64,000 nt of DNA, from the NCBI GenBank assembly GCA_964016885.1, contig OZ024748.1, forward strand, positions 51,522,001 through 51,586,000, given 5' to 3'. Both the position numbers and the translations under genes were made by a program. Positions 12,104-52,468 of the stretch are shown here, piece by piece. Source of the DNA: Eledone cirrhosa (taxonomy: Eukaryota). A model generated the notes under the pieces. The model saw only the letters and a program-made list of their open reading frames with translations. It did no database searches and was not told the origin of the DNA. Each line of letters starts with the position of its first letter. The first letter of the stretch is position 1.

Positions 12104-12534
12104 ATATATTGGTAAAAGGAAAAGAAAATGCTGACAAATTGTTCCCAGTGAAAAATAGTTTAATTAGGAATAAATAAAAATTAGTAATAGTATTGGTTAG
12201 TATTCAGTTTTGGTTTTAAGTTTTACTGGTTGCGCATTTCTAATGCTTTTCAAAAATAATTTTGAGATAGAGTGCCCGTGATGTTTGCTCTAAATGCTTT
12301 TCAAAAATAATTTTGAGATAGAGCGCCCGTGATGTTTGCTCTAATTAGAGCAAACATCACGGGCGCTCTATCTCAAAATTATTTTTGAAAAGCATTAGAA
12401 ATGCGCAACCAGTAAAACTTAAAACCAAAACTGAATACTAACCAATACTATTACTAATTTTTACTTATTCCTAATTAAACTATTTTTCACTGGGAACAAT
12501 TTGTCAGCATTTTCTTTTCCTTTTACCAATATAT
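12104..12534. repeat. Near-perfect spacerless palindrome (~190-bp arms), with 51-bp tandem duplication in the left arm
   Basis: Centre CTCTAA|TTAGAG at 12344/12345; arms are reverse complements out to ATATATTGGTAAAAGG / CCTTTTACCAATATAT; 12242-12292 repeated at 12293-12343. Confidence 0.95.
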
Positions 12535-12544
12535 ATATATATAG

Positions 12545-12710
12545 AGGAAGAATCGACCCCAGTATTAGACTGGTACTTTTTTTATCGACCTCGAAATGAT
12601 GAAAGGCAAAGTTGACCTCAGCGGGATTTGAACTCAGAGAACAGAAAGTCGGAATGAATACCATAAAGTATTCTATCTGACATTCTAACGACTCTGCCAA
12701 TTCACTGCCT
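12545..12710 (-). mobile_element. SINE family A (older variant)
   Basis: Family body and B-box on the minus strand; a 3' fragment also lies at 11979-12050 (+). Confidence 0.8.
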
Positions 12711-12828
12711 ATATATATATATTTATATATATATTTGTTTCGCAAGGTTTTGATATCAAATCGTGCGTCAAAACAAATATTGTTATATTTGGGCGTAGAC
12801 ATACTATTCAGCAGGAGGAAAGATAATA

Positions 12829-12875
12829 GTACCACTGATGATGTTGCAGATGTGCAACGAAAGAACTTTGATAGA
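12829..12875 (+). ncRNA. Candidate minimal type I hammerhead ribozyme (Penelope-like terminal repeat)
   Basis: TACCA CTGATGA T GTTGCA-GATG-TGCAAC GAAA GAACT T TGATA: intact core, perfect 6-bp stem II, near-palindromic stem III and 4/5-bp stem I. Confidence 0.7.
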
Positions 12876-13558
12876 CTATACATGTATATTTATATCTGGT
12901 TTTTTAACTGTTGTTCAATCAATGATAAAGATTGATTGCCAAATAAATTAACTATGGAGATATAAAAGATACAGAAGCTAAAACCAACCAGACAGTGAGT
13001 GTGTTCTGTTATTATTTCTGGCAATATTACAACAATATGACCCTCCCCAAGTATAACAATATATATGTATTCATTTATGTAAAAATTACAAATGAAAGAA
13101 AATATGTTTATGTAAAATAAAACATGCAGACCTCAGTCCTTTGAAGATCCTTGTAGTTGGCTTTTAGTTTAAACATATCTTTCATATCCCTAATGTCAGT
13201 GGATGTGTGACAGGATTATGTATGTTTCTATGTATGTGTTAAGCTACCTAATAGTATTTTGTCTCCCCCGAATCAATATATTTGCTTATATTCCCTTGAC
13301 ATTTCTTTCAGTATTCATTTACATTCTAAACCTATACTAGTCATACATTGCAGGTTGCTTGGGGTTTTGTATGAGTTTTTGTTTTTTGTTTTTTGTTGTT
13401 GTAATTCTGCCCTTGGTTAAATAAATACATAACACAACCTCATTGCATGCAAAAATTGTAAATATTTGAGTATATATATATATGTATATATATATATATG
13501 TATGTAAGTATATGTTCTGAGTGCTTACATGTAGGCATGTATGTATGTATGTGAGTGG

Positions 13559-16634: not shown

Positions 16635-17282
16635 TAATTGTTTCTACTTTTGGCACAAGGCCAGCAATTATCCTGGTACATTACTGGTACTTTATTTTAT
16701 CGACTCTGTAAGGATGAAAGGTAAAGTCAACCTCGGCAGGATTTGAACTCAGATCGTAAAGGGACGAAACTATGCTGGAAAGCATGGCGCCCGACCCTCT
16801 ACCGATACTATATATATAATTCATATAATACATGGCTTAGTGGTTAGAGCATTGGCCTTGCAATCGAAAGGTTGTGAGTTCAATTCTCAGACCGGGTGAT
16901 GTGTTGTTTCCTTGAGCAAGACACTTTATTTCACATTGCTCCAGTTTACTCAGCTGTAGAAATGAGATGATAGGACTGGGGTCCCTATCATTTCACAGCA
17001 ATTCTATGACTCAACCAGGGTTTATGGGTCCATACATATATTATAAGCGTTTAGAGAGGAGCGATAGATAGGAAAAATCGTCAGATTGTCAAATAAAATG
17101 ATTTGTGGCATTTGTTCTCGATATTTGCATTCTAAGTTAAAATTTTGCCAAGGTCAACTTTGCTTTCCATTCATCTGAGATTGATAAAGTACCAGTCAAT
17201 ATGATCGAATTGGGGTCAATATAATCAACTTTTTCTTTCTCTCAAAATTGCTGGCCTTGTGCCTAAATTAGAAATCCTTATT
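16635..17282. mobile_element. SINE A (16635-16810, -), CORE-SINE B 5' part (16833-17000, +), old SINE A (17050-17282, +)
   Basis: SINE B shows TGGCTTAGTGG (A-box), GAGTTCAATTC (B-box) and CCTTGAGCAAGACACTTT..CAGCTGTAGAAATG (CORE-like). Confidence 0.85.
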
Positions 17283-37942: not shown

Positions 37943-38275
37943 TCATCATCATTTTACGTCCGCTTTTCCCTGCTTGCAAGGGTGGGACAGGAACTGATTC
38001 TGGTTTGATTTCTACAGCTGGATGCCCTTCCTAACACCAACCTCATTTACAGTGAGTGCTGGGTGCTTTTTTGCCATGGCACCTCCACGACCACTTTGCA
38101 GTGGAATGATAAGGACCCCAGTCCCTATCATCTCATTTCTACAGCTGAGTAAACTGGAGCAATGTGAAATAAAGTGCCTTGCTCAAGGAAAGAACACATC
38201 ACCCGGTCTGAGAATTGAACTCACAACCTTTCGATTGCAAGGCCAATGCTCTAACCACTAAGCCATATGCCTCCA
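37943..38275 (-). mobile_element. Full-length CORE-type SINE B with RTE-derived (GAT)n tail
   Basis: Head GGAGGCATATGGCTTAGTGGTTAGAGC..GAGTTCAATTC; CORE-like CCTTGAGCAAGGCACTTT..CTCAGCTGTAGAAATG; tail GGTTGGTGTTAGGAAGGGCATCCAGC..GGACGTAAAATGATGATGA shared with the RTE LINE 3' UTR. Confidence 0.9.
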
Positions 38276-45056: not shown

Positions 45057-46086
45057 ATGACTGTCTGTCTGTGCATATGTGTAAACAATAAATAATACAT
45101 ACATATTATTTATTCTATCTTTACATTCATTTTTTTTTATATTCTGGTTTAAAAAAATAAATTGTTTTACAGTTACTCATTTGTTTTAAAAATTGCCTTT
45201 TTTTTTTTTTTTACATTTTAACAATTATTTTTTTTTTAATAATTACATTTTAACAATTATTATTTTTTTTTTTTTTTCTGTTTTTTTTAAATTTAAAATT
45301 TCAATAACACAGAATCTTTCTGAAGCATTTCTGTAAATATCATTATTGTTTAATTATGCTTTTAAACTAAATTGGTAATCTGTGTACTAAAATTAGTATG
45401 AAATAAATGAGACATTGTCAGATATGATATTTTATGAGTCTATCTCTGTATGACTGTGGACATATGGATATGGCTTCATTCATTAATTATTTTTATTATA
45501 TTATTTTCTCACAATTCACCTTCCTAACATACATCCTCATATGTAACATATACAATGTTACTCATTAGCAATCTAAGATGCACAAATGATTTTCAATTCC
45601 TCCTTAATTAAAAACTGAAATAGGTAGAATTTTACAAAAAATGAATAATTTGACAAGACTAGATGTAAAATTATTATTATTGTTATTTATTAATATTGGC
45701 AGTATTGTTAGAGCATTGGACACGATGTTTCGCAGCAAATTTACGTCCCTTTATGTTCTGAGATCAAACCCCGGTGAAGTAAGTTTTGCCTTTCATCCAT
45801 ATAGGGTCGATAAAATAAAGCACCAGTAATACACTGGGGTCAATTTAATCGTCTTTCCCCTCCTCCAAAATTGTTGAACTTCTGCCTAAATCAGAAATTA
45901 TTATTATTATTGTTGCAGTTATATATATATAAAACACAATTCCATATCTAAAACCTTGCTAAACAAATATATATATATGTAAATGAGGTTGGTGTTAGGA
46001 AGGGCATCCAGCTGTAGAAATCAAGCCAGAATCAGTTCCCGTCCCACCCCTGCAAGCAGGGAAAAGCGGACGTATGATGATGATGA

Positions 46087-52256: not shown

Positions 52257-52468
52257 TATATAATTCATTTATTGGCAGCATGACTCTCCCAAATTATAAC
52301 AATATATACATATATATTTGAAAAGATTCAGAACCTGGTTGGAGCTCAGCCATAGGGGTCCTAAATCTTTTCATATGATGCACTCTACTACCCCAAGTAT
52401 AGAGTGTACTGGTTTTTACCACACCTTATCTCATATATATATATATGTGTGTGTGTGTGAGTGATTGC

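What the first reader, a model, noticed from the sequence alone, without database searches (positions are those of the whole stretch)
12829..12875. Best single hammerhead ribozyme candidate, from a second unrelated family
Seen: intact CUGAUGA and GAAA flank a perfect 6-bp stem II (GUUGCA/UGCAAC, GAUG loop). Stem III AGAACU is one change from the palindrome AGAUCU or AGUACU, and stem I UACCA/UGAUA is one change from perfect. The host segment (~12735-13065) lies between (TA)n tracts, and its end (TGACCCTCCCCAAGTATAACAATATATA) recurs at ~52280-52307. Inference: another Penelope-like terminal repeat or retrozyme family.
Basis: partly seen in the sequence, partly recalled or inferred. Interest (0 to 1): 0.72.

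Follow-up and report, generated by a model that had tools for sequence, protein, structure and literature searches.

The report
Mismatched hammerhead in octopus Penelope retroelement
This is a real hammerhead-RNA motif in the leftover end piece of a Penelope-type jumping gene with over ten thousand copies in a likely octopus genome; such motifs are already known, but here the short arm predicted to let two copies pair and cut is not self-complementary in most copies, so it would likely cut only weakly, which is untested.

Summary
The motif is real (0 matches in 200 shuffles). It lies in a dead, 5'-truncated, inverted-end copy of the terminal repeat (pLTR) of an endonuclease-bearing Penelope-like element. 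The family has at least 10,627 copies, young 4,147-bp tandems and RT plus GIY-YIG frames; it is not a retrozyme. The 'recurrent end' is the element's start codon region, and the copy at 52,269 fits a sister family better. Helix II shows compensatory changes. AGAACU and the C·A in helix I are the family state. A sister family of about 20,800 copies also lacks a palindromic loop 3 in 100 of 100 listed. Only the youngest subfamilies have a wobble-palindromic AGAUUU with A17. Published PLE hammerheads have palindromic loops, so this is a modest variant of a known kind. Cleavage is untested. This scan noted Penelope-type hammerheads before on other DNA of this genome, not on this sequence.

The parts
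12712..12736 (.). (TA)n tract, 5' side of the insertion target
   Evidence: (TRF 12712-12736)
12733..12793 (-). Inverted end piece of the same element: reverse complement of the pLTR 3' end plus its ~45-nt tail (reads as codons ~4-23 of the ORF)
   Evidence: (L060 match 12792->12733, 85%); tail end at +274 in 6 of 40 copies
12792..13062 (+). Direct pseudo-LTR (pLTR) of an EN+ Penelope-like element, 5'-truncated 43 nt before the hammerhead core
   Evidence: 88-94% (mean 91.8%) identical to the 29 closest copies, 74% to the youngest subfamily
12830..12873 (+). Type I hammerhead motif: helix I TACCA/TGATA with C.A, core CTGATGA + U9.1, 6-bp helix II, GAAA, 2-bp helix III with non-palindromic AA loop, U17; predicted cut after 12868
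13037..13062 (+).
   Evidence: ORF continues from here in tandem units; homologues start with a similar F/Y-D/N-T-R stretch; 15 of 40 copies end here
13063..13066 (.). Short TA remnant, 3' side of the target
52269..52305 (+). 37-nt remnant of the pLTR 3' end of the sister Penelope family; no hammerhead with it
   Evidence: (92% to L040/L062)
45935..45977 (-). Short tail-like remnant of a related element in (TA)n
   Evidence: (88% over 43 nt to the inverted piece)

Best explanation
The motif is a type I hammerhead in the terminal repeat of a dead, truncated copy of a high-copy Penelope-like retrotransposon, and in the source elements it likely worked as a slow ribozyme that would cut mainly when two copies pair through a helix III with a central A·A/A·A mismatch. 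Shown: the motif; its place about 240 nt after the ORF stop and 200 nt before the next ORF start; the RT + Cys-linker + GIY-YIG host; tandem units of 4,147 bp; (TA)n targets; two fixed 3' ends 45 nt apart; compensatory change in helix II; and a non-palindromic loop 3 as the family state. Inferred: read-through transcripts of tandem units carry two or more motifs. These could fold together (A-U, G-C, A·A, A·A, C-G, U-A) and cut after U17 to trim precursors to unit length, while single motifs stay uncut and are copied whole. The window copy arose by target-primed reverse transcription into (TA)n with early truncation and an inverted second end. It has no ORF and is probably inert.
For: Host identity: loci with the segment continue upstream into RT (YVDD) and GIY-YIG frames. 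Young copies hold 1,097- and 1,130-aa open stretches with LPPKF, DKSG, YVDD, CX4CxxC, VYSI/YIGET and EHARQ; Pfam RVT_1 is weak (E 2e-4 to 2e-3, below cut-off); 50 homologues, nearest named from Octopus vulgaris at 65%. Tandem units are 99.9% identical. Copy number: 1,364 exact 31-mers, 7,404 and 10,627; reversed-pattern controls 0. Constraint: in 18 hand-picked representatives the core positions C3-A6, G8, A9, G12-A15.1, U16.1 and the first two helix I pairs are invariant, while N7, N9.1 and H17 vary, as a hammerhead allows. Helix II is 100% paired, with two pairs changed on both sides; 0 of 500 shuffles reach the covariation score. Among 100 listed of 340 copies with alternative helix II arms, 88 are fully paired, with 19 G·U intermediates against 3 A·C ones (counted by eye). 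U17, the extra 9.1 base and 2-5-bp helix I are common in published PLE hammerheads; the tested metazoan PLE minimal motif did not cut as a monomer and cut weakly as a dimer or trimer (PMC4209133).
Against: No cleavage or expression data. The AGAACU homodimer helix is weak: +2.4 kcal/mol with initiation, against -5.0 for AGAUCU. Helix I has only 2 contiguous Watson-Crick pairs in this family, and pairing probability falls to 0.03 in the youngest subfamily. Copies do not end at the cut site: 0 of 40 3' ends lie there, while 15 lie at +229 and 6 at +274. Tandem motifs are 4.1 kb apart. Rfam hammerhead models do not hit. The covariation set was hand-picked and is related by descent, and part of the helix II change is at CpG sites. 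Naiad PLEs multiply without canonical hammerheads (PMC8557442).
Confidence: 0.7

Rival explanations
1. The fold is kept for something other than cutting, such as an RT- or host-protein binding site or a promoter-proximal structure, and the motif is catalytically silent in this lineage.
For: Non-palindromic loop 3 in both families; C.A fixed in helix I (88 of 100 listed have ACCA) and helix I down to 2 bp in the most recently active subfamily; ends of copies ignore the cut site; Cervera and de la Pena allow functions other than cleavage.
Against: All catalytic core bases and the NUH rule (17 = U, A or C, never G in 18 rows) are kept across two families whose flanks have diverged. The young lineage shifted to A17 and a self-complementary AGAUUU, changes that favour cleavage.
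Confidence: 0.17
2. It cuts as a monomer, closing a 2-bp helix III over a two-base loop, perhaps with help from the element's protein or the bulged outer helix I.
For: A15.1-U16.1 and G15.2-C/U16.2 are always pairable while the two loop bases vary freely (AA, GA, AG, AU), as a loop would. An outer helix AUAGU/ACUAU forms in the window copy.
Against: Two-base loops are strained (general knowledge). The tested single metazoan PLE motif showed no cleavage. The outer helix is not kept in younger subfamilies or the sister family.
Confidence: 0.1
3. The 270-330-bp segment is a non-autonomous retrozyme (short tandem hammerhead repeat expressed as circles).
For: Size fits 170-400 nt; many copies are short solos (20 of 40 start 33-74 nt before the core).
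Against: 12 of 40 sampled copies run more than 300 nt upstream, into the endonuclease frame. The unit ends in the ORF's first codons. Tandems seen have 4.1-kb, not 300-bp, periods. No loop 1-loop 2 canonical motif.
Confidence: 0.03

Closest known systems
Hammerheads in pLTRs of metazoan Penelope-like elements, variant with a small helix III (Cervera and de la Pena 2014, PMC4209133; main text parts 1-3 of 4 and supplement file 2 parts 1-2 of 3 read; file 1 not searchable)
   Same: Type I topology, 6-bp helix II with G10.1-C11.1, extra base 9.1, short helix I, U17, place in the pLTR, thousands of mostly truncated copies. D. virilis, Oikopleura and Marsupenaeus also have a two-base insertion in helix III.
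   Different: Their loop 3 is palindromic when present (a feature the paper lists). In the 56 rows of Fig. S3, read as extracted text, I saw no purine-purine two-base loop. Here AA (also GA, AG) is the state of two families, and helix I carries a fixed C.A.
EN+ PLEs of the Neptune/Nematis type (Craig et al. 2021, PMC8557442, passages; Arkhipova et al. 2013, PMC3846280, passages)
   Same: Single ORF with GxKF-like and DKG-like motifs, RT, CX2-5CxxC linker and C-terminal GIY-YIG; partial tandems; inverted 5' pLTR; optional tail; pLTR holds the first codons of the ORF; (TA)n targets; Asn-rich insert as in Adineta elements.
   Different: Tail about 45 nt (30-40 published). The Asn-rich insert lies before the RT rather than between RT and thumb or EN. 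Neptune versus Nematis not resolved.
Metazoan non-LTR retrozymes (Cervera and de la Pena 2020, PMC7229834, passages)
   Same: Type I hammerhead, low GC, unit of a few hundred bases, weak helix III that needs dimers in amphibians.
   Different: Retrozymes are non-coding short tandem repeats with canonical loop-loop contacts; this segment is the end of a coding 4.15-kb element.

Membership tests
Type I hammerhead ribozyme | Core C3-U4-G5-A6-N7-G8-A9, G12-A13-A14, A15.1-U16.1, H17 | tested here: met
   invariant in 18 representatives, only N7/N9.1/H17 vary
Type I hammerhead ribozyme | Helix II with G10.1-C11.1, supported by covariation | tested here: met
Type I hammerhead ribozyme | Helix I flanking the cut site | tested here: inconclusive
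   first 2 pairs invariant; third is C.A in this family; 4-5 bp in the sister family; 78.7% of cells paired
Type I hammerhead ribozyme | Self-cleavage after H17 | not testable with these tools
   needs an in vitro assay or raw RNA reads; none available
Type I hammerhead ribozyme | Match to Rfam hammerhead models | tested here: not met
   0 of 6 matches; none in the 150 shown of 316
PLE hammerhead, small-palindromic-helix-III variant | Extra nucleotide between 9 and 10.1; long helix II; short helix I; in a pLTR | tested here: met
   PMC4209133
PLE hammerhead, small-palindromic-helix-III variant | Palindromic 15.2-16.2 and loop 3 | tested here: not met
   15.2-16.2 pair, but the loop is AA: AGAACT 72 of 100 listed, AGATTT-A 20 of 100; AGATCT 34 of 7,404; sister family 0 palindromes in 100 listed (that pattern fixed G15.2)
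EN+ Penelope-like element | Single ORF with PLE RT and C-terminal GIY-YIG | tested here: met
   Pfam RVT_1 below cut-off; GIY-YIG by motif, and Pfam only in homologue P0013
EN+ Penelope-like element | Partial tandems, inverted 5' pLTR, optional tail, ORF start in the pLTR | tested here: met
Neptune/Nematis clades | CX2-5CxxC linker before the endonuclease | tested here: met
   CTNRKCIIC; definition from PMC8557442
Neptune/Nematis clades | Placement in an RT tree with named references | not testable with these tools
   no labelled Neptune/Nematis reference proteins were available from the tools
Non-LTR retrozyme | Non-coding 170-400-nt tandem units | tested here: not met
Non-LTR retrozyme | Abundant linear/circular monomer RNA | not testable with these tools
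   no run on record as RNA was listed

The most novel reading that the evidence does not exclude
Two octopus Penelope families with over 30,000 copies carry a hammerhead that is under selection for its fold but has dropped the palindromic dimer code. It would cut through tandem purine-purine mismatches or as a protein-assisted monomer, and the dated subfamily series (AGAACU-U, AGAACU-A, AGGACU-A, AGAGCU-U, AGAUUU-A; helix I from 5 bp to 2 bp) is a ready natural panel for asking what hammerheads do for Penelope elements.
Probability: 0.25. Interest if true: 0.55.

Novelty: new variant of a known kind. Interest (0 to 1): 0.3.

Why it matters
Hammerheads in Penelope terminal repeats have been known since 2014, so this copy is ordinary in kind. 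What remains open in print is what they do (PMC8557442: 'still unclear'). The standing model rests on palindromic helix III allowing dimers. A very successful, recently active lineage that keeps the core and co-varies helix II, yet lacks the palindrome, puts that model under a direct test with natural sequences. A negative result would favour a non-cleaving role. The window copy itself is an inert relic.

Tried and rejected
Rfam: no hammerhead hit. One search used a pattern one place out of register and returned only 42 indel variants; it was redone and not used. Expression: no RNA holder listed; the runs laid were all contigs of unknown or guessed kind and gave no ends, strand or level, so they are not used as evidence. 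Genomic footprint of cleavage: copies whose homology starts within 6 nt before the cut site numbered 102 hits. By eye, of the 100 listed about 20 were indel or point variants and about 15 repeats of one locus, leaving about 65. A control window of 5 nt inside helix II gave 27 hits, about 20-25 true junctions. That is roughly 2.5-fold per base, but most junctions keep 1-2 A/T bases that (TA)n or inverted ends would supply by chance, there is no sharp peak at the site, and the anchors differ; inconclusive. The sister family gave 82 hits of the same mixed kind, with no control. A distal GUUCU in the pLTR could pair with AGAAC, but it is followed by G at position 17 and is not kept in the sister family; rejected. 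No PLE ORF in the window (tblastn). Neptune versus Nematis unresolved. One review (PMC3334697) was not held. Look-ups of earlier notes by this sequence and place were empty.

Full report
Observation. The window reads TACCA-CTGATGA-T-GTTGCA-GATG-TGCAAC-GAAA-GAAC-T-T-TGATA at 12830-12873. In hammerhead numbering this is a type I motif with an extra U between 9 and 10.1, a 6-bp helix II, a helix III of A-U and G-C around AA, U17 at 12868, and a helix I with a C·A at its third pair. My descriptor finds it once in the window and never in 200 dinucleotide-preserving block shuffles. Folded alone, the 56-mer forms helix II and part of helix I but is not unusually stable (z -1.37). Rfam gives no hammerhead among 6 matches on the segment or among the 150 shown of 316 on the window.

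Host element. The segment is a dispersed repeat. A search of the own genome gave 2,316 candidates, of which 40 were scored. Exact patterns gave 1,364, 7,404 and 10,627 places, with reversed controls at 0. Several of the 29 closest loci continue upstream into coding DNA, and two 10-kb extensions show RT and GIY-YIG frames. Young copies carry open stretches of 1,097 and 1,130 residues with LPPKF, DKSG, YVDD, CTNRKCIIC, VYSI/YIGET and EHARQ. Pfam sees RVT_1 only below its cut-off. Of 50 longer homologues, the nearest named one is from Octopus vulgaris at 65%; I infer an octopus host from this. One locus holds tandem units of 4,147 bp that are 99.9% identical. By the definitions in Craig et al. 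2021 (PMC8557442, passages) the Cys linker points to Neptune or Nematis; I could not separate them.

Anatomy of the window copy. The direct part, 12792-13062, is the pLTR. It ends in ATG ACC CTC CCC AAG TAT AAC AAT, which in tandem units opens the ORF (MTLPKYNNICFDTR). Homologues begin with a similar stretch, and the sister family keeps most residues through third-position changes. The 5' piece 12733-12793 is the same end plus a 45-nt tail, inverted. I took 40 of the 100 places listed (early ones on contig C1, skipping some already fetched or paired). Of these, 15 end at +229 from C3, 6 at +274 and 3 at +284, and none ends at the cut site (+34). On the other side, 20 begin 33-74 nt before the core and 12 run more than 300 nt upstream. 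This matches published PLE structure: pLTR with the first codons, optional tail and inverted 5' copy (PMC3846280 passages). The remnant at 52269-52305 is 92% like the sister family. The window has no PLE ORF, and the copy is 88-94% identical to its 29 nearest, so it is old and inert.

The predicted consensus. Among the first 100 of 7,404 places (counted by eye), helix III plus position 17 is AGAACT-T in 70, AGAACT-C in 2, AGATTT-A in 20 and other single variants in 8; AGATCT, AGTACT and TGGTA are 0. Genome-wide, AGATCT is 34 of 7,404, spread over several backgrounds. On the 5' strand 88 of 100 listed have ACCA and 3 ATCA. A sister family (20,816 places; the pattern fixed G15.2 and also catches a few copies of this family) shows AGAACT in 77, AGGACT in 17, AGAGCT in 3 and others in 3 of 100 listed, with no palindrome, and has a 4-5-bp helix I.

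Is the fold selected? In 18 hand-picked representatives of both families the catalytic positions and the first two helix I pairs are invariant; N7, N9.1, loop 3 and H17 (U, A, C) vary. Helix II is paired in every cell, with two pairs changed on both sides. No shuffle of 500 reaches the covariation score, and slid controls fall to 20-43% paired; helix I is paired in 78.7%. The rows are related, so this is not a probability. Among 100 listed of 340 copies with GTC(A/G)CA arms, 60 are GTCACA/TGTGAC, 19 GTCGCA/TGTGAC (G·U), 9 GTCGCA/TGCGAC and 12 mispaired, only 3 of them the A·C alternative (by eye). CpG decay can account for part of this, but the step from ACA/TGT to GCA/TGC creates CpGs. I built a tree from sequence downstream of the motif only: 98 rows, one per locus, after dropping 21 second copies and three duplicate loci; midpoint root; bootstrap not settled. 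It separates the two families (100/100) and nests the AGATTT-A copies in a young clade (100/99 for the enclosing group), with the GTCACA/TGTGAC copies mostly near the base on weak support. I infer that AGAACU is ancestral, the C·A arose on the 5' strand, and AGAUUU-A is recent; I ran no formal clade test.

Mechanism. Cervera and de la Pena 2014 (PMC4209133; main text parts 1-3 of 4; supplement file 2 parts 1-2 of 3) report hammerheads in the pLTRs of all PLEs they examined. For the tested S. mansoni motif they found no cleavage as a monomer and low cleavage as a dimer or trimer, and they list a palindromic loop 3 as a recurring feature. U17 is common in their Fig. S3, so it is no sign of decay. 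Perreault et al. 2011 (PMC3088659, passages) say the vast majority of such loops allow dimer pairing, which leaves room for exceptions. Here a homodimer would give four Watson-Crick pairs around a 2x2 A·A loop: +2.4 kcal/mol, against -1.7 for AGGACU, -0.4 for AGAGCU, +0.2 for AGAUUU and -5.0 for AGAUCU. I commit to a slow, mainly dimer-dependent ribozyme acting on tandem read-through RNA. Single motifs stay uncut, which fits copies running through the site to fixed ends 195 and 240 nt further on. Identity as a PLE pLTR hammerhead is near certain (about 0.95); the mode of cutting is inference (about 0.5-0.6). Against it stand the weak helix III, a helix I reduced to 2 bp in the youngest subfamily, the 4.1-kb distance between motifs and the lack of any activity data. 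A search for copies starting at the cut site was inconclusive.

Novelty. Searches for Penelope-like + hammerhead + octopus, hammerhead ribozyme + cephalopod, and searches listed no paper on this family. A 2026 O. vulgaris repeat annotation counts 31 recently active Penelope-like families and does not use the words ribozyme or hammerhead (PMC13282606, passages). The library lacks most subscription papers and I could not search Repbase or Dfam. Retrozymes (PMC7229834, passages) differ in being non-coding short tandems. Earlier notes of this scan describe Penelope-type hammerheads elsewhere in this genome, none on this sequence or place; they did not alter my reading. Verdict: a real motif of a known kind in a dead copy, with one tested departure from the published variant, the non-palindromic loop 3 held across two large families. 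New variant of a known kind; interest 0.3.

Noticed in passing
window 12104-12534: Near-perfect fold-back in (TA)n next to the finding: 190-nt arms 99% complementary, plus a 51-nt tandem duplication at the centre. Origin not determined; the head-to-head shape resembles a Penelope-type inverted insertion.
   Followed up: no
window ~12547-12710 and about 20 other places: Copy of an abundant short interspersed repeat directly 5' of the target tract; recalled as an octopus SINE, label from memory.
   Followed up: no
L073/L074 (G000:C1:14.38-14.40 Mb): Four hammerheads at a 4,147-bp period plus an inverted one; units 99.9% identical, each with the ORF in two frames: a very recent insertion or local amplification.
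   Followed up: partly
L075 3414-6704, L077 2643-6032: About 170-residue Asn/His-rich insert between the LPPKF and DKSG motifs, open also on the antisense strand; Asn-rich inserts are described for Adineta Penelope at other positions.
   Followed up: partly
45-65 nt before the core in both families (e.g. L031, L040, L062, L038); cut through at window 12792: A conserved AA(A/G)ATGGCGT motif near where 20 of 40 sampled copies begin. It resembles a YY1/initiator site (recalled) and may mark the transcription start; BLAST ends in this AT-rich stretch are imprecise.
   Followed up: partly
G000:C4:349.89-349.92 Mb: Eleven copies of one inverted-junction fragment of this family at about 2.2-kb spacing: a secondary tandem amplification.
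   Followed up: no
window 16833-16890 (+) and 38208-38265 (-): Two equal-scoring partial tRNA-like matches just under the Rfam cut-off (28.1 against 29 bits).
   Followed up: no
L129: Chimeric locus: a young-subfamily hammerhead followed by the end of a sister-family element; it falls in the sister clade of the tree for that reason.
   Followed up: partly
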